46,837 nt of DNA. It comes from a phage. The translations under genes were made by a program, and so were the position numbers. Positions within the stretch are counted from its first letter, which is position 1. Each line of letters opens with the position of its first letter. The stretch lies in sequence record PZ502447.1. One strand, 5' to 3'. This document shows positions 8,301-35,640 of this stretch, piece after piece. The notes under the pieces were generated by a model. The model saw only the letters and a program-made list of their open reading frames with translations. It did no database searches and had not been told where the DNA came from.

Positions 8301-8347
8301 ACTATAAGCCATCCTTGGCGGCGCGTCTTTAGCAAAACGTGCTATTT
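8301..8347 (-). promoter_or_regulatory. conserved promoter module (inverted-repeat motif plus -10-like TATAGT)
   Basis: Minus-strand AATAGCACGTTTTGCTAAAGAC, then about 22 nt, then TTATAGT, then leader ACGAAAACGAGAGG, then ATG of 7919..8272; overlaps the terminase large subunit stop. Confidence 0.5.
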
Positions 8348-12743: not shown

Positions 12744-12884
12744 TTAGCTATTCGTGCTGTTTATTTTATCTTCACGCTCCTTCCATAGATTCATCAGCTC
12801 GAAGTACATCATGGCAACCTCGCCAGTCTTAGCCTCATCCATCATCCGTTTAGCCCACTGGCTTGGTGTTTCGTAGTTATCCAT
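12744..12884 (-). CDS. hypothetical small protein (46 aa)
   Basis: Hand-translated ORF MDNYETPSQWAKRMMDEAKTGEVAMMYFELMNLWKEREDKINSTNS; start overlaps the upstream stop (TAATG). Confidence 0.35.
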   Translation of the reverse strand: MDNYETPSQWAKRMMDEAKTGEVAMMYFELMNLWKEREDKINSTNS

Positions 12885-13208: not shown

Positions 13209-13631
13209 TCAGATTTTGTTAATTTGCTCAAACTTCTCAAACCAGAAAACAACTGGATCCTCCACTATGGAGATGAGGCCGAACCGCTCTGCCGTGCGAA
13301 AATTCATGCTGCTCTTACGCCCGCGAGCGACTTGAAGAGACACCTGTTCCCTGAACATTTCAAGGGAATAGCAAGTTTTCATGAGGTTGCATGGAGCACA
13401 TGCAGGGTAAAGGTTTTCCATTCGATCAGCTTGTGGTCGATTAAACTCACCTGTCGCCTTCAGCTTGAAAGTTCCTTTCTCCGCTGCCTTCATGCATACC
13501 TCAGATTTACGTAGCACCGGTTCAACATGGTCAGCATGCCAGCCTTTCTCAGGTAGTTCACACCCACAATAAGCGCAGCGACCACCGAACTTGCCCTTCA
13601 ACTCTTCCCTTTGAGATTTGCTTAATTTCAT
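13209..13631 (-). CDS. HNH endonuclease (classic zinc-finger HNH)
   Basis: 140 aa; CAYCGC...HADHVEP...CAPCN motif arrangement of the HNH fold. Confidence 0.75.
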   Translation of the reverse strand: MKLSKSQREELKGKFGGRCAYCGCELPEKGWHADHVEPVLRKSEVCMKAAEKGTFKLKATGEFNRPQADRMENLYPACAPCNLMKTCYSLEMFREQVSLQVARGRKSSMNFRTAERFGLISIVEDPVVFWFEKFEQINKI

Positions 13632-13821: not shown

Positions 13822-13896
13822 CGTCAATTCCTCATCTCGTTTTGATGGGATAAGTATAACAACCTATCCCAATTCATGTTTATCAATTCGTGCTAT

Positions 13897-14040
13897 TTAT
13901 AATTCTTCAACTACTTCGCATCGATGCACGGCACCACCAAGAACATCCATCTGAGCTTTTGCTTCCTTGTAGGATTCATAAACTCGCACGTGCTTAACGC
14001 TGTTAAACTTACCTGTATAGTACGTGTGAACGTAAATCAT
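13897..14040 (-). CDS. hypothetical small protein (47 aa)
   Basis: Hand-translated ORF MIYVHTYYTGKFNSVKHVRVYESYKEAKAQMDVLGGAVHRCEVVEEL; start overlaps the upstream stop. Confidence 0.35.
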   Translation of the reverse strand: MIYVHTYYTGKFNSVKHVRVYESYKEAKAQMDVLGGAVHRCEVVEEL

Positions 14041-14673: not shown

Positions 14674-14749
14674 CCCACCCTCTCTTGCTTTGCTTTAATA
14701 AGGCCACTATATCAAATTGCCTTGCGGAAGGTTTAACAATTTGTGCTAT

Positions 14750-14935
14750 TCAAAACTTAACATCAATTATGACTTCAACCATCTCCTGCCCAAGCCGGTA
14801 GGAGTCGCCCCAAAGAAGTAGTCCCATAAACTCATCCTTACTAAAAGTGTTGGCATTTACAGTTCTAAGATAGCCACGATGGATAACAGTATCGCCAATC
14901 TTAACTTCGCTCTTATGTACCATTTTAGTTTTCAT
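14750..14935 (-). CDS. hypothetical protein
   Basis: 61 aa ORF in the leftward early block. Confidence 0.4.
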   Translation of the reverse strand: MKTKMVHKSEVKIGDTVIHRGYLRTVNANTFSKDEFMGLLLWGDSYRLGQEMVEVIIDVKF

Positions 14936-15884: not shown

Positions 15885-15974
15885 ATTCGTTACTCCTGAT
15901 TGGTTGCTCTTCGTTAAGATGAAACCATGGTATCATGAATATACGCGTTATCAAGTGTTATGTTGTGTTTATAT

Positions 15975-16030
15975 CTGCATTGGTTACGCTTTTTGACCTC
16001 TCAGCCCAGCTATAGCTGGTGTAATTACCC
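15975..16030. repeat. duplicated control-region block 1 (copy A) with perfect palindrome CCAGCTATAGCTGG
   Basis: ATTGGTTACGCTTTTTGAC...GCCCAGCTATAGCTGG; near-identical block at 35223-35280. The 14 bp perfect palindrome is at 16006-16019. Confidence 0.6.
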
Positions 16031-16145
16031 TGTGTAAGATTTTACGCGGATTCGCCGGGGGTATGCATATGTATCTATATAGATAAAATTAGTAGTTTTC
16101 ATAGAAAAACTATCGACCCATCCATACGACCAATCTACACCATAT

Positions 16146-16212
16146 ACATACATATATATAATAATAATAATAATATAGTAAAAGGTTGATATATATAGAT
16201 ATTATTATGTAA
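16146..16212. repeat. duplicated control-region block 2 (copy A) with (TAA)n microsatellite
   Basis: ATATATATAATAATAATAATA...AGTAAAAGGTTGATATATATAGATATT..ATGTAAC; near-identical block at 35404-35468, at the same roughly 120 bp spacing from block 1. Confidence 0.6.
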
Positions 16213-16483
16213 CCATTGCGTAATCTCGCGTGGTAGGCGTGTATGATTCTTCGGAAGCGCACCTCATATACACACCATAACTTCGATAACGTGTATATCC
16301 AAATTGGCTCAGCAAGAATCAAAATCAACTTGTATGGTAGTTCATCCACCATTCATTCACCCCACATCAATCATTGCAAATTCTGCAACAATCAAAAACA
16401 TCATTGCATTCCATGCAATATTGCTATATGTGCAATAATCATGATAATCATTGCAATAGCTGCAACAATAGATAAATCCAACG

Positions 16484-16556
16484 AATAGCACTTTTTGCTA
16501 ATGACAAAAACTGGCGACGAGGCCATAATGAATCCATCAACAACGAGGAGAGAGAT
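16484..16556 (+). promoter_or_regulatory. conserved promoter module for rightward early operon
   Basis: AATAGCACTTTTTGCTAATGAC, then CATAAT, then leader CCATCAACAACGAGGAGAGAG, then ATG at 16557. Confidence 0.55.
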
Positions 16557-16742
16557 ATGAAACTTAAAGACGAAGCATTTGAGCAATTAAAGCAGGAATG
16601 TGCGCTGATTGGATTGAACAGTGACTATACTGATATGGTTTTACGCGGACGCATCGATATCGACCTTGCTAAGCAATTCCAGTCAGATGATGAATATCTG
16701 TGCTGCGATGGCCTCGGCTGCGACGAATGTTTACCATGGTAA
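16557..16742 (+). CDS. hypothetical protein (Cys-rich C-terminus)
   Basis: 61 aa, ATG with GGAGAGAG SD; C-terminal CCDGLGCDEC cluster suggests a metal-binding mini-domain. Confidence 0.5.
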   Translation: MKLKDEAFEQLKQECALIGLNSDYTDMVLRGRIDIDLAKQFQSDDEYLCCDGLGCDECLPW

Positions 16743-16946
16743 GGAGCCGAATAATGAAAGTTAAGTGCTTAAATAATCTTAATGATGGAACCTGGGAATT
16801 CAGTAGTTGAAAGCATTACAGTTATGATGAAATTTATGGTTACGTAGTTGGTGATAACTTCAAGCCAGTTTACTGCTACATTGAAAATGGCCTTGTTATT
16901 GCCGCTGTTAAGCGTCGATTGATTTTTGAAATTTTAGAGGATTAAC

Positions 16947-17150
16947 ATGAAACTTCTTTGCACTAACATAATTAAAGACTTTAACGACGCCTTCAATAAG
17001 GGCTCTGAATACAACGCTACCGAGTTTAAAAATGATATGTGCCTTGTTACCGGCGAACGTCCACACAAGCATCACGACACGTTCCAGGCGCTTAAATGCC
17101 TTGATTACGTAATCATCCACGGCATCGCAACTTTTAAGGTGATTGAATAA
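16947..17150 (+). CDS. hypothetical protein
   Basis: 67 aa ORF with GAGGA SD; stop overlaps the next start (TAATG). Confidence 0.45.
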   Translation: MKLLCTNIIKDFNDAFNKGSEYNATEFKNDMCLVTGERPHKHHDTFQALKCLDYVIIHGIATFKVIE

Positions 17151-17314
17151 TGCTTTTACCATCTGAGATAAACTATTTCGATCTGGAAATAATTAGTGCT
17201 TACAGCGGAAAGGGTTGGCCTTGCGGGGACTGGTTTAACGAGGACCTGCTTGAGTCTCACGAGATTATGTTGAAGGCAATTGAGAAGGCCAGAAAAAATA
17301 GCACTAATTGCTAA
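17150..17314 (+). CDS. hypothetical small protein (54 aa)
   Basis: Hand-translated ORF MLLPSEINYFDLEIISAYSGKGWPCGDWFNEDLLESHEIMLKAIEKARKNSTNC; its stop lies inside the promoter motif. Confidence 0.35.
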   Translation: MLLPSEINYFDLEIISAYSGKGWPCGDWFNEDLLESHEIMLKAIEKARKNSTNC

Positions 17315-17373
17315 AACTCACCGCCACGGATGGCGTATATTTACTCCATCGAAACGAAAGAGAGCAAGAGATC
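17297..17373 (+). promoter_or_regulatory. conserved promoter module
   Basis: AATAGCACTAATTGCTAAAAC, 22 nt, TATATT, then leader CCATCGAAACGAAAGAGAG, then ATG at 17374. Confidence 0.55.
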
Positions 17374-17535
17374 ATGTTCGACAACTTTTATGACGAGATG
17401 GAAGAGGCGGTTCTCAGGGCGTCGCTAGATGGTAAGATTTACGGTTTAGTTCAGAAGTTTGATAAGATTGTTGTGCGTATTGTGCGCAAATCAGTACCAA
17501 ACAAATTCATGTGGACAACTAAGAGATTAAAATAA
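17374..17535 (+). CDS. hypothetical protein
   Basis: 53 aa; the ORF-track start at 17308 is a TTG inside the promoter motif, so start moved to the first ATG after the conserved leader. Confidence 0.45.
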   Translation: MFDNFYDEMEEAVLRASLDGKIYGLVQKFDKIVVRIVRKSVPNKFMWTTKRLK

Positions 17536-17924
17536 TGACTACTACGATAACCAAAAATTTCATTAGCAACGACAACAAGCTATTTAAAGCTCGCGTTAAA
17601 AAGATTCACCAGTGGGTTAACGGTGTCGCTGAGGAAGTTGAATTTGAGCAAATCAAAAAAGACGGCAAATGGATCAACCTGGAAGAACGTGGAAAATACA
17701 TTAAAACCAAAACTCTTTACTGCACAAAGGTTAACCATAAGTCTGGCGTTAAGAAAGACTTCAAAGAAGGTAAGCGATACCAGGTCAACATGCATAGCGG
17801 ACTTGGTCAGTCAGCTGGATACATTTACGATGAAGATGGCAACGCCTGGCAGCTATATCGCAGCGAAGATGTTGGCTTTTATACGTTGTGTGAAACTTAC
17901 CACTTTGAGGCTCAATACAAATGA
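17535..17924 (+). CDS. hypothetical protein
   Basis: 129 aa ORF, ATG overlapping the upstream stop. Confidence 0.5.
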   Translation: MTTTITKNFISNDNKLFKARVKKIHQWVNGVAEEVEFEQIKKDGKWINLEERGKYIKTKTLYCTKVNHKSGVKKDFKEGKRYQVNMHSGLGQSAGYIYDEDGNAWQLYRSEDVGFYTLCETYHFEAQYK

Positions 17925-18091
17925 AATTATACATTGTAAGTGGTTGCACACACTATGATGGAAGCGAAGTGATTGCCGCTTTCGATGAAGAATTCAAAGC
18001 ACAGGAGTTTAAATATAACAAAGAAATATCTTCAGAAAATCACTTTGACTACTACAAGATAGATTGCATCTTACTAAATAGCACTAATTGA
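17921..18091 (+). CDS. hypothetical small protein (56 aa)
   Basis: Hand-translated ORF MKLYIVSGCTHYDGSEVIAAFDEEFKAQEFKYNKEISSENHFDYYKIDCILLNSTN; stop lies inside the promoter motif. Confidence 0.35.
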   Translation: MKLYIVSGCTHYDGSEVIAAFDEEFKAQEFKYNKEISSENHFDYYKIDCILLNSTN

Positions 18092-18150
18092 TAATGCATT
18101 ATAAGCGGCTATTGATATAATGGCCGCTCATAACAACACGGAGAGAAGTA
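18077..18150 (+). promoter_or_regulatory. conserved promoter module
   Basis: AATAGCACTAATTGATAATGC, then TATAAT, then leader CTCATAACAACACGGAGAGAAG, then ATG at 18151. Confidence 0.55.
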
Positions 18151-19734
18151 ATGTTTGATTTCAACGAAGATAAACTATCTGTTGAGCAGGTTATGGCAAT
18201 CGCTGCCAATGACAACCTACCACCGCTTCGCGTGGCTATTAATGCCAATGGCTATCGACAGTCTCAATCGTTCTGGAAAGCACCTGTCGAGATTGATACA
18301 GGTAATGATAAGTATCCAGTAATCTCACTCGGTAATGATATTGATGTTGTTGGTAAGCTATCGGCTAATATCGCTCGCTCGGTTCAGTTCCCTGAGTCGT
18401 CAGCTTACATGCACTTTCTTGGTTGTGTTTCTGCTGCAATGCTTGGGCGTTTTACTGTCGAGTATCATGGAACCCAACAGCCAACATCTTTGTACGTGGT
18501 AACAAGTCAGCCGCCTTCAACTGGTAAATCAGCCATTAACTCGCTATCAATCGCGCCGATGATTGCTGAGACTGAGCGGTTGAATGAAGTACGTAAACGT
18601 GATCGAAAAAAGATTATGGCTAAACTGTCCGCTCTGGCTAAAGAGATGAAGCAGGAGAAATCACCTTCTGAAATGGCTTCACTTTTTGAGGAGAAGGATG
18701 ATTTAGAGGAGAAGCTCGAGAAGCTATGCGATATAGTATTCCCGGTTTCCGATACTACTCCGGAAGGTCTTGCGCGAATCAACAATCGCCAGGGTAATTT
18801 TGCGGTAATCTCTGATGAGGCTACTAGCGTCAACTCACTGTTAGGCATGACTTACGGTGATGGCTCGAAGAAAACGAACAGCGAGCTCGTGCTGAAAGCA
18901 TGGGATGCAGGTAATGTGTCAATTGCCCGTGCGAACGCAGAAAATAACATGAGCTTTGTGGCTATGGGATGCATCTCCGTAATTGCTCAGGATGAAACAA
19001 TCAATGCCATTATGAATGCTGGTGCGCGTGGTATTGGTGTATCTGAGCGTTTCCTTCTGGTGCGCGAAAAGTCATTCCTTGGCGACCGCGTATTTGTTGA
19101 TGCTAATGGTGATTCAACATACGAGGCTATTGATGGCGGCCTGAAAGCGGACTACTTCCGTCTTGTTCATGAGATTATGAATGAAGTAGAGGTTAAGCTA
19201 ACAGTAAGCGCATCATCAATGCGTTACCTTAACCGAGCACGTCAGGAGATGGAGCCTCATCTTGGTGATGGTGGCAAGTATTCTCACACAATGTTGCGCG
19301 GTGCTCTTGGTAAGTTTGATAAGCAAGCAATCCGCATCGCTTCCGTACTTCACGTTATTCGTAACTGGTCCTCACAAACTGGCTCTAGCCCGCAGAAGTC
19401 CAGAGAGATTGAACTGGAGACAATGCAGGAGGCAGTTATGATTTTCAACGAGCTAAGCAAGACGTATTTGTCATCAGCTAGTGCTGCTGGTCATGCTGGT
19501 GACAATGCCGAGATGAACAAGCTGGTTGATATCCTGATTAAGCAGGGCAAGAATGGTAAAGGTGTTGTTGGTGTTCGCTCGTTGTATGAGGCTGCACGCA
19601 AGGTTAAACCTTTTGAAGCTCAGGCTGGAATTATGACTCGCATTAAGGACCACTTGATTCCTATGCTTGATGAGAAAAACTACACATGCCTGATTGGTGA
19701 TAAAATTTACATTAATCCACGATTGCTGGGGTAA
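18151..19734 (+). CDS. P-loop NTPase, possibly replication-associated
   Basis: 527 aa; Walker A-like PPSTGKSA and Walker B-like FAVISDE; largest gene of the rightward early operon. Exact family not recognised. Confidence 0.45.
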   Translation: MFDFNEDKLSVEQVMAIAANDNLPPLRVAINANGYRQSQSFWKAPVEIDTGNDKYPVISLGNDIDVVGKLSANIARSVQFPESSAYMHFLGCVSAAMLGRFTVEYHGTQQPTSLYVVTSQPPSTGKSAINSLSIAPMIAETERLNEVRKRDRKKIMAKLSALAKEMKQEKSPSEMASLFEEKDDLEEKLEKLCDIVFPVSDTTPEGLARINNRQGNFAVISDEATSVNSLLGMTYGDGSKKTNSELVLKAWDAGNVSIARANAENNMSFVAMGCISVIAQDETINAIMNAGARGIGVSERFLLVREKSFLGDRVFVDANGDSTYEAIDGGLKADYFRLVHEIMNEVEVKLTVSASSMRYLNRARQEMEPHLGDGGKYSHTMLRGALGKFDKQAIRIASVLHVIRNWSSQTGSSPQKSREIELETMQEAVMIFNELSKTYLSSASAAGHAGDNAEMNKLVDILIKQGKNGKGVVGVRSLYEAARKVKPFEAQAGIMTRIKDHLIPMLDEKNYTCLIGDKIYINPRLLG

Positions 19735-19737
19735 TTT

Positions 19738-20073
19738 ATGTACCTGCTCGACCTGTATAATTTCTGCGAAGGATACAAGAACTTCAACCGCCAGCACCTG
19801 GCAAGATTCATCTATAAGCACAAGGATTGCGCAAGGATGGCCAAGGCTGCCGGGGTTGATGAAAGGTATTTTGCCTCAAGTTGCTCGAAGGAGTTTATGG
19901 CGAGAATGCTTACGGCTGGGTATCTTGATGGAGTTAATGGAGTGTACTGGTGTAAGGGTTCAATTAAGCGACCATTTCAGTTTGAATTCATGAGCCTTGA
20001 AGGTAGGTCCAGTGATTACGTCAGTGAGATGATGAACATAGCCAACATGAGTGATGACGAATTGTTTGCATAA
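19738..20073 (+). CDS. hypothetical protein
   Basis: 111 aa ORF, last gene of the rightward early operon, followed by a terminator. Confidence 0.5.
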   Translation: MYLLDLYNFCEGYKNFNRQHLARFIYKHKDCARMAKAAGVDERYFASSCSKEFMARMLTAGYLDGVNGVYWCKGSIKRPFQFEFMSLEGRSSDYVSEMMNIANMSDDELFA

Positions 20074-20078
20074 AAATA

Positions 20079-20099
20079 GCCCCATTACGGGGCTTTTTT
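20079..20099. terminator. bidirectional intrinsic terminator between convergent operons
   Basis: Hairpin GCCCC-AUUAC-GGGGC with a T6 run on the plus side and an A-run on the other side; sits between the plus-strand stop at 20073 and the minus-strand stop at 20085. Confidence 0.65.
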
Positions 20100-21469: not shown

Positions 21470-21540
21470 TTTTGAATCCTCTGTTGTTTTCGATGTAGTA
21501 ATTATGCCGGATTACTCCGGCGATTGTTTAGCAATTCGTG
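21470..21540 (-). promoter_or_regulatory. conserved promoter module
   Basis: Minus-strand AATAGCACGAATTGCTAAAC, then CATAAT, then leader CATCGAAAACAACAGAGGA, then ATG of 21299..21469. Confidence 0.55.
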
Positions 21541-22088
21541 CTATTTATTACGTGCATTACCAAAGCAGAGGTTCCATCAATATCACCATCTACAACATGA
21601 ACGTCAATTTCTCTTGCGCAGACACCGCGAATGTAGGAGCGGCTATCTCCATCAAAAGTATAGCCAGGCCTAAAAAGTCTAATCAAAGTAACTTCAACCC
21701 CTGAATCAATGAGAGTATTAATCTCGCTAGCGAAGCCACCATCAGCACAGATATAGCAACCATCACCAAGTGATTGCGCTAGCCTTTTACCGAAAACATC
21801 ATCACCAAAGACTGGCTTCATAACTGACTCACTAATCCAAATCATAAATTCACGAACCGTCATTCCACCAAGAAATTCATGTGGTGATTCTTTGTACTCT
21901 CGGTCATCGTAATTCTTAATAAATTCATCAAACTCATCGCTTGATAGTATTCCTTTTGCAACATTAAACATTGGTGACTTGAATGAAACCTTATCCTTGC
22001 AAATTCCAAGATTAACAATGATATCTGCAACTGTATCTTTTCCAGCACCAGGGGGTGCATTAAGGATGATTAACTTTTTCATTTTCAC
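21528..22088 (-). CDS. deoxynucleoside monophosphate kinase-like P-loop kinase
   Basis: 186 aa; P-loop NAPPGAGKDT and overall resemblance to T4 gp1 dNMP kinase (GKDT..AD, RPG motifs). Could alternatively be a polynucleotide kinase domain. Confidence 0.55.
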   Translation of the reverse strand: MKMKKLIILNAPPGAGKDTVADIIVNLGICKDKVSFKSPMFNVAKGILSSDEFDEFIKNYDDREYKESPHEFLGGMTVREFMIWISESVMKPVFGDDVFGKRLAQSLGDGCYICADGGFASEINTLIDSGVEVTLIRLFRPGYTFDGDSRSYIRGVCAREIDVHVVDGDIDGTSALVMHVINSTNC

Positions 22089-23850: not shown

Positions 23851-24102
23851 TCATTCAACCTCTTTTAACCAGAAATCCAACAAATCAGCACTAATTGCTA
23901 ATTTTTGGTCCATGTCTGTCATGCACAGATTACCGCACGCTGGAGAGTAGTAAATCTGTACCCATTTACCGTCCTTCGTCTTCGCGTTAACATCCACATA
24001 GTCAGGTGGAAACCAGTCATCAATAGGTATCGCTCTAAACCTGGCTCCGCTACTACCATGCACTAAATCATAATGCTTTGGCTGGAAATCTAATCCAAAC
24101 AT
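23851..24102 (-). CDS. hypothetical protein
   Basis: 83 aa ORF in the leftward middle operon. Confidence 0.4.
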   Translation of the reverse strand: MFGLDFQPKHYDLVHGSSGARFRAIPIDDWFPPDYVDVNAKTKDGKWVQIYYSPACGNLCMTDMDQKLAISADLLDFWLKEVE

Positions 24103-24890: not shown

Positions 24891-24974
24891 TTTCTTTCTC
24901 TCTTTGTGTGTTTCGTTTCGATGAGTTTATAATACACCAACTCACCAATTCGTCTTTAGCAATTCGTGCTATTT
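24891..24974 (-). promoter_or_regulatory. conserved promoter module
   Basis: Minus-strand AATAGCACGAATTGCTAAAGAC, 22 nt, TATTAT, then leader CATCGAAACGAAACACACAAAGAGAG, then ATG at 24890. Confidence 0.55.
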
Positions 24975-25389: not shown

Positions 25390-27384
25390 TCAATCCTCCA
25401 TCGTAAATGATTTGTTGGCGATAATATCTTGCGACTTCTGATTCTTGCGGTGCGTAATCCTTAGCGGCGCACGGAAAAGATGTGCATTTGTCATAATCAT
25501 TTTAGCATTACGCAATCTGCCAATCCTAAAAGCCTCAGTACTGTTCTCGATGTGAGTTGAGCAAAACGCCTTCCATTTGACAGAACAAACACGATGGTCT
25601 GACTCCGGGAAGAATGTTTCATAAGCTCGGAACTTATCTCCACTATGAGCCATTACCTCATATGAAGCAACGATCCCTGACTGGTTTTTTGTCAACCCAA
25701 TCTTGAAGTCATAAACTCTCAACCAGTCCCCTTTCCGATACATTTTTCCAGATAGCTTTGCATTTGGGTCTATCAGCATCTCTCCGCAGCAGCGGCAGTT
25801 CTTTGCTGCAACGTCATTTTTCTCTCCGCAACCTTTCTTAATGATAACTTTCGTCTGCGGGTCCTCAATATCTTCGCAAAGACGGAACTGAAAAAAATGC
25901 TCGCATCGTTTACCGTCAATCACATTATTACAGCGCCGTGCGAAAGGAGAATTCTCATAAGAACATGCTGGGCAAATTCTTGGTTCATCACCCCCTTTCC
26001 TGGATGACTTAAACTTCTGGTCCTGAACCTCTTCTATAATTGGGTCGAAGTAGAGTTCTGCCATATCGTCAAGCGTCCCGGCAAAATCAAGAACAACGTG
26101 GTCCTCTTTTATCATTCCAGCTTCTTTGTGCTTCTTCTTAAGAATTCGCATACCGCGACCAAGCAACTGAATGAGCAACGTTATGCTGCCAACCTTCCTT
26201 AGGATAATGCTTGTATCCCACGGCGGCACGTTGACGCCCGTTGTGAGGCAACCAATCTGAAATATGAATTTATATTCTCCATTTGCCGCCTTATCAAGTA
26301 TCTCTCTGCGTTTTTTTTCACCAGTGGAGTCAGTAACTATCGCCCACGTCACACCATCTGGTAGCGCTGCCGCCGCCTCTTCACAATGCTGCTTTCCGGC
26401 GCAGGTTACCAATGCCGCATTCCTTGTTTCCATGAATTTAGCAGCAAAGCCCATTATCTTTTGGGTCATGGTCTGGTTTTCATGAATCTTCGCAGCCATA
26501 GCGTCCATTTCTTTTTTACTGAAGTCTTTAACTCCATCACTTCCATCTGGAGCAAACTCGCTAAGGTCATAACCCAAATCACCAACCTCGCCGTAAACGG
26601 TCGGAACCACGAACCCCAAGTCAACCAGGTAACTGGTTGGTACTTGCATTACCGTTTTACGCCAGAAACCACGAACATTCGGATTGCTAACTACAATGTG
26701 GTCATTGTTCCGGTAAGGGCTACCAGTTAAACCGAAGATGCGTAGCTCTCGACCATACTTCTCTTTGCAGCGTCTCTTCATCTCAGTAATGATTAGCGTG
26801 TACTGCGCACGACCAGTTCCGAGCAATCCGGTATTCACTCCATCCTTGAAAACCATCTCACCCTTCTTCGTGCTCATCTGCTCGAATGTTTCCTCGTTCT
26901 CTTCAGCTTCTACGATATCCATATGGTCAACCATATGACATTCATCTATCGCAATAACGGCAGGAACATAGTCACCAAGGCCCTTAAACAAGCCGTTAGC
27001 AGCTGTGCCCTCACTAGCCACTATGGTTGGGTAGTAAACTGATTTAACGTTAAGGCCAGCGCAATAGACGCTATTACGGATGCCGAAGTTACGAAGCTCT
27101 TCAGCGTTCTGGCTGATAATTTCTGACTGGCGAGAAAGCACCATGTAAGGAAGCCCAAGCTGTTCCATTCGTTTCCCAATCATGGCGAGTATAATTGTCT
27201 TACCAGCAGACACCGACAGGTCTGCGATGAATGGTGCTTCATACTTGCCAATGGCCTTGCCAATAGCGTCAAATGTCACGCACTGGAATTCGTAAGGCGT
27301 TATGTCTCCAAACTGGTAATCTTTCTGAATCTGTTTAATTTTCTCTTTATCAAAGTTGGCTACTAAGCGCTCTACTGGAAGCAT
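25390..27384 (-). CDS. ATP-dependent SF2 helicase (DExH box) with C-terminal Cys-rich zinc-ribbon region
   Basis: 664 aa; Walker A SVSAGKT, DExH box AIDECH, C-terminal CPAC...C..C and C.CCG clusters. Confidence 0.75.
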   Translation of the reverse strand: MLPVERLVANFDKEKIKQIQKDYQFGDITPYEFQCVTFDAIGKAIGKYEAPFIADLSVSAGKTIILAMIGKRMEQLGLPYMVLSRQSEIISQNAEELRNFGIRNSVYCAGLNVKSVYYPTIVASEGTAANGLFKGLGDYVPAVIAIDECHMVDHMDIVEAEENEETFEQMSTKKGEMVFKDGVNTGLLGTGRAQYTLIITEMKRRCKEKYGRELRIFGLTGSPYRNNDHIVVSNPNVRGFWRKTVMQVPTSYLVDLGFVVPTVYGEVGDLGYDLSEFAPDGSDGVKDFSKKEMDAMAAKIHENQTMTQKIMGFAAKFMETRNAALVTCAGKQHCEEAAAALPDGVTWAIVTDSTGEKKRREILDKAANGEYKFIFQIGCLTTGVNVPPWDTSIILRKVGSITLLIQLLGRGMRILKKKHKEAGMIKEDHVVLDFAGTLDDMAELYFDPIIEEVQDQKFKSSRKGGDEPRICPACSYENSPFARRCNNVIDGKRCEHFFQFRLCEDIEDPQTKVIIKKGCGEKNDVAAKNCRCCGEMLIDPNAKLSGKMYRKGDWLRVYDFKIGLTKNQSGIVASYEVMAHSGDKFRAYETFFPESDHRVCSVKWKAFCSTHIENSTEAFRIGRLRNAKMIMTNAHLFRAPLRITHRKNQKSQDIIANKSFTMED

Positions 27385-27480: not shown

Positions 27481-27954
27481 ATGTGTGAAATTGACAAGCG
27501 AACTATCAACGGCAATAACGGAACCATCCGCACGCAAGACAAGAAACAGCGCAAACGACCGTCAGGCTACTACGTATTGAAAGATGAAGTAAAGGCTGGG
27601 CTACGAGCTCGTCTGGAGATGGTTCTTGATTTCTACGGCACGAAGGCCAATATCGCCAAGCAGTTAAATGTATCTCACCAGACTGTAGAGCAATGGTTTG
27701 ATCGCGGGATGATTTCGGCTCGAGGTGCCCAGAGGGCTCACAATGCATACAAGCGAAATAAGGAAGGCTTTAGAGCTACGTTCTGCCGACCAGACCTGCA
27801 ATTCGACGGAAACGGTAAGCCATTAACGCTTAGATGCAAGAAACGCCATATGCTGCGGGTTGTTACAGAAGCTGAACTAGCAACAAAGCCACCATGTCGA
27901 CCATGGCGCAAGAATAAGATTGCCAACGAAGCAGCACGAAAAGCTAAAGATTAA
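27481..27954 (+). CDS. HTH DNA-binding protein (putative transcriptional regulator)
   Basis: 157 aa, ATG with GAGGTAA SD; helix-turn-helix-like segment TKANIAKQLNVSHQTVEQWFDRG; basic N- and C-termini. Confidence 0.5.
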   Translation: MCEIDKRTINGNNGTIRTQDKKQRKRPSGYYVLKDEVKAGLRARLEMVLDFYGTKANIAKQLNVSHQTVEQWFDRGMISARGAQRAHNAYKRNKEGFRATFCRPDLQFDGNGKPLTLRCKKRHMLRVVTEAELATKPPCRPWRKNKIANEAARKAKD

Positions 27955-28005: not shown

Positions 28006-28485
28006 ATGAACTGGCATGATTATTTTTACTATGTAGATGGCAAATTGCATTGGAAGATTAGCACTGCAAGACGTGTTAAGGTTGGCGATGAGTGCAACTC
28101 ACTATCTACATCTGGCTATTACAAAGTGTCTGTTAATGGCTTTAGGACTTATGTACATAGAGTTGTGTGGGAGATGTTTAATGGAGAACTTCAAAATGGC
28201 GACTACATTGATCATATAAACCATAACAAATTAGATAACAGAATAGAAAACCTAAGAGTAACAACAAATCAAGGTAACTCAAGAAATTGCAAGCTTAGCG
28301 TTTTATCAACAACTGGTTATTGTGGAGTAGCAAAGCTAAATCACGGAAAATTTAAGGCTCACATCAAGGTTGACGGTAAGCAGCTACACCTTGGGAACTT
28401 CGATACTCCAGAGCAGGCGTATAAAGTAAGAATTGAAGCAGAGAGAAAATGCAACTTTCACGAAAATCACGGGTTAAGCAAATGA
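28006..28485 (+). CDS. HNH homing endonuclease (AP2-HNH type)
   Basis: 159 aa; IDHINHNKLDNRIENLR HNH core; N-terminus MNWHDYFYYVDGKLHWK paralogous to the HNH at 9916; inserted directly upstream of primase with an ATGA overlap. Confidence 0.85.
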   Translation: MNWHDYFYYVDGKLHWKISTARRVKVGDECNSLSTSGYYKVSVNGFRTYVHRVVWEMFNGELQNGDYIDHINHNKLDNRIENLRVTTNQGNSRNCKLSVLSTTGYCGVAKLNHGKFKAHIKVDGKQLHLGNFDTPEQAYKVRIEAERKCNFHENHGLSK

Positions 28486-29405
28486 ATTACGATAAGAATG
28501 AAGTTATACCTAAGATGGCCGGATTGTGGAAATCATTTTATGCAAAGGAACTTGGTTGGAATGATAGACACCTAAGTAAGAAGCACGGACCATGCCCATA
28601 CTGCTTTGGCACTGACAGATTCAGATTTACCGACGAAATAGGCAGTGAAAAAGGGAATGGCGCGGCAGTTTGTTCGAAATGCGGAAGTGACTCCGGTATA
28701 GGATGGGTCATGAAGTGCACTGGATCGTCCTTCGCAGATTCAGTAAATTTGCTTGGTGACTGGCTGAACTTAACACCAATTGAGGTTATAGTTAAAGCAA
28801 ACAAGCAAGCATCAAGAACCCAGCTCTACAAAATGGGCGCCCAGATTGACCACGAAAGATGTTTAGAGATTATGGAAAGAACAGAAAGAGTAGAATCAAC
28901 TCCACTCAGTATATACGAGGGTATCTATAGCGAATTTGGTTTTGATGTTGGCAGGACGAAATCAGGCGAACTAATACACGCAGTACCGTGCTTTATGGCT
29001 TATAGTGACGGCATATCAGATGATATGTGCAATGTAATGTTTATCAATGAAGATGGAGATGTTAGCTATGCTGCAAAAGATTATACTCGCCAGTCTGTTT
29101 CTATTATTGGCACCTTTAAAGATGATGAGTACGCTTATCTGGTCGATAATTGGATTGATGGTGTTCGCGTTCATCTTGCTACTGGAAATCGCTGCGTGCT
29201 TGTTTGCCACTCCAGCTACAACATGGAAATGGTTGCTTATGCGCTTATGAACTACAAGTTACGCGTCGCTTGTACTCGCAACTCTTTTGATTTACTTGCC
29301 GTTGCTGACGATCGCAATCTTGATATTGTAATTCCAAATGATGGTAATTTTTTCAAGTCAGGCATAAGAAAGAGAATATACAAGGCAAACGAATTACTAG
29401 ACTAA
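28482..29405 (+). CDS. DNA primase (zinc-finger type)
   Basis: CxxC...CxxC zinc-binding motif (CPYCFG...CSKCGS) near the N-terminus. Start placed at ATG MNYDKNEV overlapping the HNH stop; the ORF track starts it 33 nt earlier. Confidence 0.55.
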   Translation: MNYDKNEVIPKMAGLWKSFYAKELGWNDRHLSKKHGPCPYCFGTDRFRFTDEIGSEKGNGAAVCSKCGSDSGIGWVMKCTGSSFADSVNLLGDWLNLTPIEVIVKANKQASRTQLYKMGAQIDHERCLEIMERTERVESTPLSIYEGIYSEFGFDVGRTKSGELIHAVPCFMAYSDGISDDMCNVMFINEDGDVSYAAKDYTRQSVSIIGTFKDDEYAYLVDNWIDGVRVHLATGNRCVLVCHSSYNMEMVAYALMNYKLRVACTRNSFDLLAVADDRNLDIVIPNDGNFFKSGIRKRIYKANELLD

Positions 29406-29426: not shown

Positions 29427-29492
29427 ATACCTGAAAGATGATACAATCCACTTTAGCAATTAGTGCTACTTTACAAATGGAGACTTTACACA

Positions 29493-32051: not shown

Positions 32052-32537
32052 TCAGTAGTAAAGATGTTCCGCTTGCTTTCTTGCCTTTAATGCGGACTCA
32101 AACGTTTCGAATCGTCCTAGATGTATTTTTCTACCGTTTACAGTTATGGACGCATCGTATTTTCCCTTATTAAAATGTACACCACCGCACCCCGTCTTAT
32201 TGTTTACTCTTACACCTAAATTGTGCATGTTGCCTGTTCTGTTGGTTTTCAGTAGGTTTGCGTAGGCATTATTTGCTCTATTCCTGTCAATATGGTCAAT
32301 TTCAATATCACCACTCAAAGAACCTTCAACGAAGGCAACCGCAAGCCTGTGAGCTTGGAATCGCTCTCCGTTGATGTTTATGCCTATGTATCCATTCCTA
32401 AGCGAACCTGAATTCGAACCTACATCTACACGCCGCGATGTGGGAATAATCCATGAAAAGATCCCTGATTCTGTACCGTAGGATAGGTGACGCATTGCTG
32501 CGTCAACCACATCTTTTGTTATGTCTTTGTATTTCAT
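32052..32537 (-). CDS. HNH homing endonuclease
   Basis: 161 aa; IDHIDRNRANN HNH core and NKTGCGGVHFNKGKYDASITVNGRKIHLGRFETFESA AP2-like tail. Confidence 0.8.
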   Translation of the reverse strand: MKYKDITKDVVDAAMRHLSYGTESGIFSWIIPTSRRVDVGSNSGSLRNGYIGININGERFQAHRLAVAFVEGSLSGDIEIDHIDRNRANNAYANLLKTNRTGNMHNLGVRVNNKTGCGGVHFNKGKYDASITVNGRKIHLGRFETFESALKARKQAEHLYY

Positions 32538-32540
32538 GCG

Positions 32541-32969
<429 letters not shown>

Positions 32970-33009: not shown

Positions 33010-33660
33010 TTAGAATGTATCGATTTCTTGAGATTGCACTTCAACTTTTTCTTCTTGAACAGACTTTTGTGCAACCTGCTTAGGTTTTGCTGGGTTAAAG
33101 CCATTAGTTGCATTGGCCTGAATCTCTGCCTTGCGCTCGATAATGTGAGGCTCAAGCACTAACCAGCCGGCTGAATCAAGTGACTGCTTCGCCTCTTTGT
33201 AAACATCACGGAGGTCATCAAGAGTACTGCACTTAGCCAAGTCTTTCTTGAATGAGTTGATGCCTTTAACTGCTAACTGACCATCATCATCTGCCTGGCT
33301 TAAACCTAACGCCGCTGTGATTGCGTAACGGCGAGCGTATGTAAGTGATGACCCATAACCTTGAGCATCTTGCTTACTGATTGGGACTATGGTCAGGAAA
33401 CTAACCCACTCTCCAGATTCTGCATGGTAAACTGTTGTTTCAACCTTAATACGAGTGCTTACATCATCATCAATCATCGACTGAAACATCACCAGTCCGC
33501 TATCAGCCAATCCTGGCTCTACAGCTGCTAAAACATCATCTAAAGTAGCGTACTTATTCTTGAGGTGTGAGTTCTGCTTAGACTTTTCAGCCTTAGCAAA
33601 CTTTGATTTAGCCTCGAATAACGCCTTCAATACTTGCTTGTTTTGCTCAGAAGTTTTCAT
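33010..33660 (-). CDS. erf: Erf-family single-strand annealing protein
   Basis: About 216 aa from ATG MKTSEQ (GGGGA SD; the ORF-track start is a GTG inside the promoter -10). Erf-like core ATLDDVLAAVEPGLADSGL. Confidence 0.7.
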   Translation of the reverse strand: MKTSEQNKQVLKALFEAKSKFAKAEKSKQNSHLKNKYATLDDVLAAVEPGLADSGLVMFQSMIDDDVSTRIKVETTVYHAESGEWVSFLTIVPISKQDAQGYGSSLTYARRYAITAALGLSQADDDGQLAVKGINSFKKDLAKCSTLDDLRDVYKEAKQSLDSAGWLVLEPHIIERKAEIQANATNGFNPAKPKQVAQKSVQEEKVEVQSQEIDTF

Positions 33661-33737
33661 TCCCCATCTCTCTTTCGTTTCGATGGGGTAATGATACCCC
33701 ACCTGTTAATTTTGTCTTTAGCAATTAGTGCTATTTT
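33661..33737 (-). promoter_or_regulatory. conserved promoter module for recombination genes
   Basis: Minus-strand AATAGCACTAATTGCTAAAGAC, 22 nt, TATCAT, then leader CCCATCGAAACGAAAGAGAG, then ATG of erf; overlaps the exonuclease 3' end. Confidence 0.55.
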
Positions 33738-34702
33738 AGAAGTTCTTGATACTGCTTACTTACCCACTCAGGAATCATCAAATCTTGCTCTGTAATCCCA
33801 TTACTATATCCAGGCCAAACATCAAGCTCCTTACACTGCTTGTATGTTGCCAGCGCCTCACAATATTGTAAGCGCCCAATGCGAAGTTGCTCATCTGTAA
33901 GCGTGTAGCACATAGGTAAGTATGGCTCAGTTTTCTCCTGCGCCAGGAGTCGAACCACAACCTTACGCTTCTCGCTAAATGCCTTCACGAACAAGTCACG
34001 CTGAAGGCTCATTTTGCACAGGTATCCATGGTCATAAGCTGACTTGCCAAATCCTCTCGGGCTTGCGTCCGCCGTCGTCTTGTAGTCAGTAATGAAAACC
34101 ACGCCATCAACAACATCCACGTGATCAAGCCTAACCTTAACACCACACCCAAGAATCTCACCAAAGATTGATAGCTCTTTCTGTGCTGTTGGTGAGTTAA
34201 TAATCGCATCGTAAGCTGGGATATTAGTCAGAACCTCGCGCATTGAGATTACCTTATCGTAATCTTTCGCAGTAACGAGCTCTTTGCCACTAATCAACGC
34301 CTCAGCGCTCTCCTGCTGCTCAATTAACCATTTAACAGGCCAATCCTCACCACACTTATACATCATCTCTACAAGCTCGTTATAACCCTTCCCTGACGTG
34401 CCTGAAACTCCAACTTTTTTAAGCGCTGCGGATAAAGCCGTTTGGCTAGTAATCAATCCTTCCACTTCGTCAAAGTCAGTAGCTCGCATGTATGTTGAGT
34501 CAAACACCTCGCGCTCTAGCATCATGCAGTGACTTAGTGTGCCAAACTTAAGTGCTGCGCTAGAGTTATTGCGCTGCTTAAACTTCCATTTAGCTGGTGA
34601 GGTAGCAAGAATCTCAGCCAGTGAAGAGCCAGAGATATGGTCTTGCTCTTCGTGATAGGATTCATTTGTTAGCTCGTCGTTCGTATAAACTTTAAATGTC
34701 AT
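33731..34702 (-). CDS. PD-(D/E)XK exonuclease (recombination exonuclease)
   Basis: 323 aa; nuclease core around VVFITDYKT (D..DYK); upstream partner of erf and ssb in one leftward operon. Confidence 0.65.
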   Translation of the reverse strand: MTFKVYTNDELTNESYHEEQDHISGSSLAEILATSPAKWKFKQRNNSSAALKFGTLSHCMMLEREVFDSTYMRATDFDEVEGLITSQTALSAALKKVGVSGTSGKGYNELVEMMYKCGEDWPVKWLIEQQESAEALISGKELVTAKDYDKVISMREVLTNIPAYDAIINSPTAQKELSIFGEILGCGVKVRLDHVDVVDGVVFITDYKTTADASPRGFGKSAYDHGYLCKMSLQRDLFVKAFSEKRKVVVRLLAQEKTEPYLPMCYTLTDEQLRIGRLQYCEALATYKQCKELDVWPGYSNGITEQDLMIPEWVSKQYQELLK

Positions 34703-35554: not shown

Positions 35555-35640
35555 AATAGCACGAATAGCTAAAGACAAAGATTATAGATGATGTATGATT
35601 ACTCCATCGAAACGAAATGCTCATTATAAGGAACAAGAAA
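35555..35640 (+). promoter_or_regulatory. conserved promoter module for rightward lipoprotein operon
   Basis: AATAGCACGAATAGCTAAAGAC, 22 nt, TATGAT, then leader CCATCGAAACGAAA, then AAGGAA SD and ATG at 35641. Confidence 0.55.

What the first reader, a model, noticed from the sequence alone, without database searches (positions are those of the whole stretch)
18151..19734. 527 aa P-loop protein as the main product of the rightward early operon
This is the largest early gene, with Walker A (PPSTGKSA) and Walker B (FAVISDE) motifs but no recognisable helicase motifs III to VI on inspection. It could be a replication initiator or loader, or a defence or anti-defence ATPase; its family is not evident by eye.
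Basis: partly seen in the sequence, partly recalled or inferred. Interest (0 to 1): 0.4.

Follow-up and report, generated by a model that had tools for sequence, protein, structure and literature searches.

The report
MCM-like DUF3987 helicase of T1-like phage
The 527-residue P-loop protein is the conserved DUF3987 (MCM-like AAA+) DNA helicase of T1-like coliphages, most likely the phage's own replication-fork helicase, so it is an ordinary member of an already described family and not a new kind of ATPase.

Summary
The ORF (18151-19734, +, 527 aa) and its Walker motifs are real. The window is a T1-like (Drexlerviridae, Rtp/TR1-related) coliphage, not a lambdoid one. The protein matches Pfam DUF3987 (E=2e-40) and PHROG 2373 "DNA helicase" (E=5e-254), and is an orthologue of T1 ST9 and Rtp rtp67. 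About 900 phage genomes hold a full-length copy.

Relatives occur fused to DnaG-type or AEP primases. In Vibrio phage pYD38-B the gene directly precedes the same primase family. The window's other helicase is RadD-like (a repair type), and no DNA polymerase is encoded.

Best reading: a ring-forming replicative helicase that works with the phage primase and the host polymerase. The family was already predicted to be SF6 replicative helicases (Kazlauskas 2016), and one member has been shown to unwind DNA 5'->3' (2025). No biochemistry or genetics exists for this clade. The defence-ATPase reading has no support. Low novelty, modest interest.

The parts
18151..19734 (+). CDS, 527 aa: DUF3987 / MCM-like AAA+ helicase (orthologue of T1 ST9 and Rtp rtp67)
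   Evidence: ORF; PF13148, E=2e-40, 139.6 bits against a cut-off of 27, residues 81-433; PHROG 2373 'DNA helicase', E=5e-254; orthologues; structure model and fold matches
18077..18121 (+). Promoter-like element directly upstream of the gene: one copy of the phage-wide repeat AATAGCACTAATTGATAA (18077-18094), then an extended -10 TGATATAAT (18113-18121)
   Evidence: (D2). The repeat family is described for phage TLS (PMC11447400). Function untested.
18140..18145 (+). Shine-Dalgarno GGAGAG, 5 nt before the ATG
   Evidence: read directly from the sequence
18151..18444 (+). N-terminal all-helical region (about residues 1-98). It is retained in primase-fused relatives, and its first ~64 residues are replaced by a DnaB N-terminal domain in P0191. 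There is no OB or Zn collar.
   Evidence: DSSP helices 11-21, 25-33, 36-41, 66-78, 82-97; fusions. A primase-docking role is inference.
18508..18531 (+). Walker A / P-loop QPPSTGKS (residues 120-127); K126 is invariant
   Evidence: K126 256/256
18532..18723 (+). Long charged helical hairpin inserted after the Walker A helix (about residues 128-191). Its length varies across the family (33-94 residues between K126 and T203).
   Evidence: helices 124-166 and 172-191; length distribution
18754..18768 (+). Family-specific TTPEG motif (T203 254/256, E205 253/256); role unknown
18799..18822 (+). Walker B FAVISDEA (residues 217-224). E223 is invariant. D222 is variable (D 161, A 58, S 29 of 256).
18913..18960 (+). 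Beta-hairpin just before strand beta-4 (residues 255-270), with R260 at its tip: candidate pre-sensor-1 hairpin / DNA-contacting pore loop
   Evidence: strands 255-258 and 267-270; R260 255/256. Assignment by analogy with MCM is inference.
18976..18996 (+). Sensor-1 region SVIAQDE (residues 276-282) at the end of beta-4; Q280 is 253/256
19039..19053 (+). VSERF (residues 297-301): arginine-finger candidate, resembling the MCM 'SRF' motif; R300 is invariant
   Evidence: R300 256/256. The comparison with the MCM motif rests on established knowledge.
19291..19323 (+). Lid-domain motif MLRGALGKFDK (residues 381-391). K388 is invariant and R383 is 218/256: sensor-2 candidates.
   Evidence: assignment is inference
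19501..19713 (+). C-terminal winged-helix domain (about residues 451-521)
19738..20073 (+). Co-transcribed 111-aa ORF (PHROG 2794, unknown function; T1 ST10 homologue at 54% identity), 3 nt after the helicase stop
   Evidence: Not detectably conserved next to the helicase in phage Koroua.
20078..20101 (.). Bidirectional intrinsic terminator (AGCCCCATTACGGGGCT plus T-run) that closes the + cluster and the convergent lysis cassette
28449..29405 (+). Presumed partner: stand-alone primase (Zn ribbon of the primase-helicase type; PHROG 510), 8.7 kb from the helicase
   Evidence: The same PHROG sits 3 nt downstream of the DUF3987 gene in Vibrio phage pYD38-B.
25390..27384 (-). Second helicase of the phage: SF2, RadD-like (repair/recombination type), usually annotated as 'the' DNA helicase in T1-like genome papers
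   Evidence: E=5.7e-32 to RadD 6jde_B; how the literature treats it
32541..32969 (-). Phage SSB (PHROG 44), part of the replication/recombination set together with Erf (33010-33702) and a PDDEXK exonuclease (33731-34702)

Best explanation
The gene encodes the DUF3987-family helicase of a T1-like phage: an AAA+ ATPase with an MCM-like core and a C-terminal winged-helix domain.

Proposed mechanism. It assembles into a ring, presumably a hexamer. ATP is bound by the P-loop (K126) and hydrolysed with E223 as catalytic base. R300 of the neighbouring subunit acts as the arginine finger. A hairpin carrying the invariant R260 contacts DNA in the central channel, so that the ring translocates on one strand and unwinds the phage duplex. 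It works with the separately encoded Zn-ribbon primase and the phage SSB. Because the phage has no DNA polymerase gene, it would feed the host DNA polymerase III. The winged helix and/or the small N-terminal helical domain would mediate origin or fork loading and primase docking.

Shown here: family membership, the AAA+/MCM-like fold, conservation of the catalytic residues, the winged helix, fusion and adjacency to primases in relatives, the core-gene distribution, and the absence of a polymerase gene.

Inferred: ring formation, helicase activity of this particular protein, polarity (5'->3' if it behaves like AgaPH), which residues contact DNA, the partnership with the host polymerase, and self-loading.
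For: - Family: PF13148, E=2e-40, far above the cut-off; PHROG 2373 'DNA helicase'. All 38 aligned homologues match PF13148.
- Catalytic residues: K126, E223, R300 and K388 are invariant in 256 relatives; R260 is 255/256 and Q280 253/256. Motif spacings are tightly conserved.
- Primase association: P0157 is a DnaG CHC2 Zn-ribbon fused to a full-length homologue (E=7e-142). P0191 is a DnaB N-terminal domain fused to DUF3987. P0246 is a BT4734-like AEP fused to DUF3987. In phage pYD38-B the order is helicase, PHROG 510 primase, one unknown gene, PHROG 16 SF2 helicase, exonuclease VIII, one unknown gene, SSB, in a single block. BFVD neighbours are primase fusions.
- No competing fork helicase: the window's other helicase is RadD-like, and no DNA polymerase is present (PMC11447400).
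- Core gene: 904 phage records hold a full-length copy, with a genus distribution that parallels the primase.
- Literature: DUF3987 was predicted to be SF6 replicative helicases with a C-terminal wHTH (PMC4889955). The PriCT-DUF3987 protein AgaPH unwinds 5'->3', and Walker A and B mutants are inactive (PMC11724360).
Against: - There are no biochemical or genetic data for any Drexlerviridae orthologue. The only characterised family member (AgaPH) could not be compared directly, because no sequence or accession was available.
- In this window the gene is 8.7 kb from the primase, in a cluster of small unknown genes next to the lysis cassette, and not in the replication/recombination block.
- There is no sequence-level match to Pfam MCM. 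The N-terminal OB/Zn collar of MCM is absent and no helix-2 insert is apparent.
- The Walker B Asp is Ala or Ser in 87 of 256 relatives, which is unusual for an active AAA+ motor.
- Oligomeric state, polarity and partner contacts are untested.
- I found no data on whether T1-like phages still need host DnaB.
- The link to phage N4 dns (gp43) is only sub-threshold.
Confidence: 0.65

Rival explanations
1. Initiator-type, self-loading origin-melting helicase only. The protein recognises and opens the phage origin through its winged helix, as P4 alpha or the SaPI Rep proteins do, but fork progression is then carried by host DnaB.
For: A C-terminal winged-helix domain is present in essentially every relative. 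Self-loading AAA+ initiator-helicases are the norm in mobile elements (PMC9371898). The gene lies next to the AT-rich, repeat-bearing divergent region at 15.9-16.5 kb, where the pac site is annotated in TR1.
Against: No iterons were found in or next to the gene beyond the genome-wide promoter-like repeat. A translocation-competent motor set (Arg finger, hairpin Arg) is strictly conserved. Fusion to primases argues for a role at the moving fork. The two roles do not exclude each other.
Confidence: 0.15
2. Recombination or repair motor: a ring-shaped branch-migration or fork-restart helicase, like ComM of the same AAA+ clade, that serves T1's recombination-dependent concatemer formation and not origin-dependent replication.
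Confidence: 0.1
3. Defence or counter-defence ATPase, or a non-helicase AAA+ remodeller (MoxR/RavA- or BrxL-like), that acts on host or rival-phage targets.
Against: There is no PADLOC match at E<=0.1. The gene is core and single-copy in about 900 related phages and is not a variable accessory gene. Relatives show primase fusions and adjacency. MCM hits clearly outrank RavA and BrxL.
Confidence: 0.05

Closest known systems
DUF3987 (PF13148) helicases, including AgaPH, the PriCT-DUF3987 helicase of a Seonamhaeicola mobile element (PMC11724360)
   Same: Same Pfam family. Walker A and Walker B with the catalytic Glu are conserved. Three-part layout of N-terminal domain, DUF3987 core and small C-terminal domain. 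Functional association with a primase. AgaPH is an ATP/dATP-dependent 5'->3' helicase that elutes as an oligomer.
   Different: AgaPH has an N-terminal PriCT domain and pairs with an AEP prim-pol encoded next to it. The phage protein has a short helical N-terminus, and its presumed partner is a Zn-ribbon primase encoded 8.7 kb away.
MCM helicases (SF6; archaeal MCM and eukaryotic MCM2-7/8/9)
   Different: No sequence-level match to PF00493. No N-terminal OB-fold or Zn collar, and no evident helix-2 insert. Instead, a long helical hairpin follows the P-loop helix. The Walker B Asp is not conserved. The characterised DUF3987 member moves 5'->3', opposite to MCM.
Self-loading AAA+ primase-helicases of mobile elements: satellite phage P4 alpha protein, SaPI Rep/PriRep, SCCmec Cch
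   Different: P4 alpha and PriRep5 are SF3 helicases fused to their primase. Here the helicase is MCM-like and is split from the primase. Origin binding by the winged helix is not shown here.
T7 gp4 / DnaB (SF4, RecA-fold replicative helicases)
   Same: Presumed functional analogue: a ring helicase that works with a Zn-ribbon primase at the fork. One relative (P0191) even carries a DnaB N-terminal domain.
   Different: A different fold class (AAA+, not RecA). No DnaB or gp4 structures are among the top matches.

Membership tests
DUF3987 (Pfam PF13148) helicase family | Profile match above the curated gathering score over the whole domain | tested here: met
   139.6 bits against a cut-off of 27, E=2e-40, residues 81-433 on profile positions 3-352 of 364. 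All 38 aligned homologues match.
DUF3987 (Pfam PF13148) helicase family | Conserved Walker A (GxxxxGK[ST], with variation) and Walker B catalytic Glu | tested here: met
   K126 and E223 are 256/256 and S/T127 is 256/256. The Asp before the Glu is variable (D 161, A 58, S 29).
DUF3987 (Pfam PF13148) helicase family | [quoted passage not shown] | tested here: met
DUF3987 (Pfam PF13148) helicase family | Fusion to, or adjacency with, an AEP or DnaG-type primase | tested here: inconclusive
   Not adjacent in this window (primase at 28449-29405). Met in relatives: P0157, P0191 and P0246 are fusions, and the genes are adjacent in phage pYD38-B.
DUF3987 (Pfam PF13148) helicase family | ATP-dependent DNA unwinding (5'->3' in AgaPH) | not testable with these tools
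   Known only for AgaPH (PMC11724360). Needs purified protein.
MCM family proper (Pfam PF00493; SF6) | Sequence-profile match to the MCM AAA+ domain | tested here: not met
   No PF00493 hit at E<=1 for the protein, or at E<=10 for any of 38 homologues. No MCM chain was found by phmmer or hmmsearch against PDB sequences.
MCM family proper (Pfam PF00493; SF6) | AAA+ core fold closest to MCM | tested here: met
MCM family proper (Pfam PF00493; SF6) | N-terminal OB-fold / zinc-binding DNA collar | tested here: not met
MCM family proper (Pfam PF00493; SF6) | Arginine finger in an 'SRF' motif, plus a pre-sensor-1 beta-hairpin | tested here: inconclusive
   'SERF' has an invariant R300. A hairpin at 255-270 with R260 (255/256) lies just before beta-4. 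The positions fit, but no residue-level superposition was available.
MCM family proper (Pfam PF00493; SF6) | Helix-2 insert hairpin | tested here: not met
   DSSP shows an uninterrupted helix 204-214 between beta-2 and Walker B. The large insert (helices 124-191) follows the P-loop helix instead.
MCM family proper (Pfam PF00493; SF6) | Hexamer or double-hexamer ring; 3'->5' translocation | not testable with these tools
   No multimer modelling or biochemistry was available.
SF4 DnaB / T7 gp4-like replicative helicases | RecA-fold ATPase core with the DnaB_C profile | tested here: not met
   No DnaB_C Pfam hit. The fold matches are AAA+ proteins, not RecA-fold helicases.
SF3 viral helicases (P4 alpha, D5, E1, SaPI PriRep) | SF3-type AAA+ core as the best structural match | tested here: not met
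Known anti-phage defence ATPases (PADLOC-DB) | Match to any defence-system protein profile | tested here: not met
   No families at E<=0.1.

The most novel reading that the evidence does not exclude
T1-like phages, which encode no DNA polymerase, run a hybrid replisome. In it, an MCM-like (archaeo-eukaryotic-type AAA+) ring helicase replaces DnaB, loading itself through its own winged helix and translocating 5'->3' like AgaPH. It directly couples a phage Zn-ribbon primase to the host Pol III holoenzyme. The RadD-like SF2 protein that current T1-like genome papers call 'the' replicative helicase would then be only a recombination or repair accessory.
Probability: 0.4. Interest if true: 0.5.

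Novelty: already known. Interest (0 to 1): 0.22.

Why it matters
This settles an unclear call. The protein is neither a mystery ATPase nor a defence gene. It is the family-typical helicase of Drexlerviridae, already labelled "DNA helicase" in RefSeq and PHROGs.

The useful residue is a correction of emphasis. Genome papers on T1-like phages (TLS, TR1) assign fork unwinding to the SF2 helicase next to the primase, and they leave this gene as "DUF3987" or "hypothetical". The evidence here shows that the SF2 protein is RadD-like, and that the DUF3987 protein is the only ring-helicase candidate.

If this is confirmed, T1, a classical phage with almost no replication biochemistry, would offer a simple and genetically tractable system. 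It could be used to study how an MCM-like motor cooperates with a bacterial Pol III replisome.

Tried and rejected
- Sequence searches against PDB chains, with the single protein and with the family profile, found nothing meaningful. Only structure comparison revealed the MCM relationship.
- GC skew across the window simply follows the coding strand and gives no origin signal.
- A repeat search in and around the gene found no iterons. The only significant repeat is the genome-wide promoter-like 18-21-mer.
- The link to phage N4 dns (gp43): Pfam DUF3987 scores only 24.2 bits, below the cut-off of 27, and my clade profile does not align significantly. I did not use it as evidence.
- Is the downstream 111-aa ORF a universal partner or loader? 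It is conserved in T1 but not detectably in phage Koroua, and it is absent in pYD38-B, where the primase follows the helicase. I dropped the idea.
- The original T1 and Rtp genome papers, and data on T1's dependence on host dna genes, are not held in the library. The tempting equation of ST9 with the classical DNA-negative T1 gene 1 or 2 therefore could not be checked, and I do not claim it.
- The papers on defence sensing and escape do not implicate this helicase.
- No AgaPH accession or sequence could be obtained.
- The sigma-70 promoter scan is not enriched over shuffles, 12 found against 14.9 expected, so it gives no support for 'early' timing.

Full report
**Observation.** The ORF is exactly as described: 18151..19734 on the + strand, ATG start, 527 codons. 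A GGAGAG Shine-Dalgarno sequence lies 5 nt upstream. PPSTGKSA occupies residues 121-128 and FAVISDE residues 217-223. It is the largest gene of a co-directional + strand cluster of eight or nine ORFs (about 16557-20073). The cluster ends in a bidirectional intrinsic terminator at 20078-20094, shared with the convergent lysis cassette of spanin, endolysin and holin.

**What the window is.** It is not a lambdoid genome. Megablast places it among T1-like Drexlerviridae coliphages: Escherichia phages ES and AN_ECEAS at 94% identity, and TR1 (Braunvirinae) at 87%; the helicase protein is 91.5% identical to that of Rtp. T1 has the same local arrangement: a terminal cluster of small genes ST1-ST8, then ST9 (522 aa, RefSeq "DNA helicase"), ST10, a terminator and convergent lysis genes. 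"Rightward early operon" is therefore borrowed vocabulary, and early timing was not tested. The sigma-70 scan is not enriched over shuffles. The gene is also preceded by its own copy of a phage-wide promoter-like repeat and a perfect extended -10 element.

**Family.** Pfam assigns residues 81-433 to DUF3987 (PF13148; 139.6 bits against a cut-off of 27). PHROGs assigns the whole protein to phrog_2373 "DNA helicase" (E=5e-254). tblastn finds it in 923 phage records, 904 of them full length and almost all T1-like phages of enterobacteria. An exhaustive profile search finds 6027 relatives at E<=1e-3. There is no hit to any defence-system profile.

**Structure.** An AlphaFold2 model built on 38 homologues is confident (mean pLDDT 88.9, pTM 0.87).
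- The top 29 Foldseek hits are also all MCM.
- The N-terminal ~98 residues are a small helical region, not an MCM-type OB/Zn collar.
- No helix-2 insert is seen. Instead, a long charged helical hairpin (about residues 128-191) follows the P-loop helix. Its length varies across the family, from 33 to 94 residues between K126 and T203, while all other motif spacings are nearly fixed.

**Motifs.** Conservation across 256 full-length relatives:

| Residue | Assignment | Conservation |
|---|---|---|
| K126 | Walker A | 256/256 |
| E223 | Walker B catalytic Glu | 256/256 |
| R300 | "SERF" motif, resembling the MCM "SRF" arginine finger | 256/256 |
| K388 | lid domain | 256/256 |
| R260 | tip of the hairpin before beta-4 | 255/256 |
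| Q280 | sensor-1 position | 253/256 |
| D222 | Walker B Asp | D 161, A 58, S 29 |

The variable Asp gives a family-specific S-[D/A/S]-E motif. SF1/SF2 motifs III-VI are absent simply because this is an AAA+ protein.

**Association with primases.**
- The closest fused relative, P0157 (869 aa), has a DnaG-type CHC2 zinc ribbon in front of a full-length homologue (query residues 10-522, E=7e-142).
- P0191 has a DnaB N-terminal domain in place of the first ~64 residues.
- P0246 has a BT4734-like AEP primase.
- BFVD neighbours include prim-pol, NrS-1-like and TOPRIM/twinkle fusions.
- In the distant Vibrio phage pYD38-B (27% identity) the gene is followed 3 nt later by a primase of the same PHROG (510) as the window's primase. 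Next come one unknown gene, an SF2 helicase of the same PHROG (16) as the window's, exonuclease VIII, another unknown gene, and SSB.

The three genes that are dispersed in T1-like phages thus form one contiguous replication module elsewhere.

**The rest of the replication set.** The window encodes:
- a Zn-ribbon primase (28449-29405)
- an SF2 helicase (25390-27384) that is clearly RadD-like (E=5.7e-32 to E. coli RadD)
- SSB, Erf, a PDDEXK exonuclease and a repair exonuclease
- polynucleotide and dNMP kinases

It encodes no DNA polymerase, in agreement with PMC11447400. RadD-type proteins are repair and recombination accessories, not ring-shaped fork helicases (established knowledge). That leaves the DUF3987 protein as the only candidate replicative helicase. 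Genome papers on T1-like phages nevertheless assign that role to the SF2 protein, and they leave this gene as "DUF3987" or "hypothetical". A 2026 paper recovered a "DNA helicase" in T1-like phages only through structure-based annotation.

**What is already known.**
- Kazlauskas et al. 2016 classified phage DUF3987 proteins as divergent SF6 (MCM-related) helicases with a C-terminal wHTH. They found them often fused to or next to primases, and predicted that they are replicative helicases. Their 2018 paper repeats the prediction.
- In 2025 the PriCT-DUF3987 protein AgaPH was shown to be an ATP/dATP-dependent 5'->3' helicase. Its Walker A and B mutants are inactive, and it binds its cognate prim-pol.

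My results reproduce this classification independently for the T1-like clade and add nothing categorically new.

**Most likely mechanism (confidence about 0.65).** A ring, presumably a hexamer, hydrolyses ATP at subunit interfaces using K126, E223 and R300 in trans. It grips DNA with the R260 hairpin and unwinds the phage duplex for the phage primase, SSB and host Pol III. The winged helix and N-terminal helices would serve loading and primase docking. Family, fold, motif conservation, primase association and gene inventory are shown. Ring formation, activity, polarity and partners are inferred.

**Rivals.**
- An initiation-only, self-loading origin opener (0.15). This is not exclusive of the main reading.
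- A ComM-like recombination motor (0.10).
- A defence ATPase or chaperone-type AAA+ (0.05).

**Caveats.**
- There are no experimental data for this clade.
- The gene is not adjacent to the primase in this phage.
- There is no sequence-level MCM match.
- The Walker B Asp is variable.
- The link to N4 dns is only sub-threshold.
- I could not retrieve the T1 genetics or host-dependence literature.

**Verdict.** The feature is an already known kind of gene, annotated as a helicase in reference databases. Interest is low. The residual value is the testable idea of an MCM-like helicase driving a bacterial Pol III replisome in a classical phage.

Noticed in passing
window 8329-8346, 12744-12761, 13880-13897, 14733-14750, 16484-16501, 17297-17314, 18077-18094, 21528-21545, 23884-23901, 24956-24973, 29453-29470, 33718-33735, 35555-35572: A dispersed 18-nt motif, AATAGCAC[T/G]AATTG[C/A]TAA, occurs 13 times in the window against 0.16 expected and 18 times in T1 against 0.11 expected. 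It sits at gene junctions and mostly follows the direction of transcription. In about 11 of the 13 window copies it is followed 21-22 nt later by a -10-like hexamer; about half of those also carry a conserved leader...CATCGAAACGAAAGAGAG..., before the next ATG. The repeat itself is described for phage TLS with its function listed as an open question (PMC11447400). The fixed-distance -10 and the leader suggest a phage-specific promoter class with an overlong spacer, perhaps dependent on the MerR-like regulator at 27481-27954.
   Followed up: partly
window 17535-17924 (+): This 129-aa ORF of unknown function (PHROG 2684; T1 ST7 homologue) has a homologue in the T1-like phage SECphi27 (40% identity, E=5e-25). 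That homologue is the only 128-aa ATG-ORF found in the first 50 kb of SECphi27, and it also lies just upstream of the helicase. A 128-aa protein of unknown function from SECphi27 was reported as the determinant for escape from, and toxicity with, Mokosh type I (bioRxiv 10.1101/2022.08.27.505566). The correspondence is probable but was not verified against that paper's tables.
   Followed up: partly
window 15900-16550: An AT-rich divergent intergenic region contains (TATA)n-type imperfect palindromes at 16060-16210. It also holds a tandem 46-47-nt repeat (16373-16465) carrying six ATTGCA/TGCAAT hexamers in 85 bp, against about 0.08 expected from the window-wide density. The ORFs over it look non-coding. 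The homologous place in phage TR1 is annotated as the pac site. It could be pac, an operator or an origin.
   Followed up: partly
window 25390-27384 (-): The 664-aa SF2 helicase next to the primase, commonly described as the replication helicase of T1-like phages, is clearly RadD-like (E=5.7e-32 to E. coli RadD). A recombination, repair or fork-processing role is more plausible.
   Followed up: partly
window 28006-28485 (+) and 28449-29405 (+): An HNH endonuclease ORF overlaps the first 37 nt of the primase ORF as listed. TR1 annotates a shorter, 307-aa primase that starts after the HNH gene. The true primase start may therefore be downstream of 28449. Several other HNH genes are scattered through the replication region (13209-13631, 32052-32537).
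   Followed up: no
phage collection hits H27, H43, H105 (MG065688, MG065663, MG065673) and H16 (PP134917): About 21 records named 'Campylobacter phage' (host C. jejuni) and one 'Pseudomonas phage PsgS01F' carry T1-like coliphage sequence. The helicase is up to 92.8% identical at protein level, and about 80% at DNA level for PsgS01F. This looks like contaminating T1-like coliphages or mis-assigned hosts.
   Followed up: no
window 18814-18816 (codon D222) and relatives P0100, P0105, P0119, P0120: The canonical Walker B aspartate is replaced by Ala or Ser in 87 of 256 family members, while the following Glu is invariant. The strand after it also ends in a conserved Q-D-E (residues 280-282). D281 may take over Mg2+ coordination in those members. 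This is untested.
   Followed up: partly
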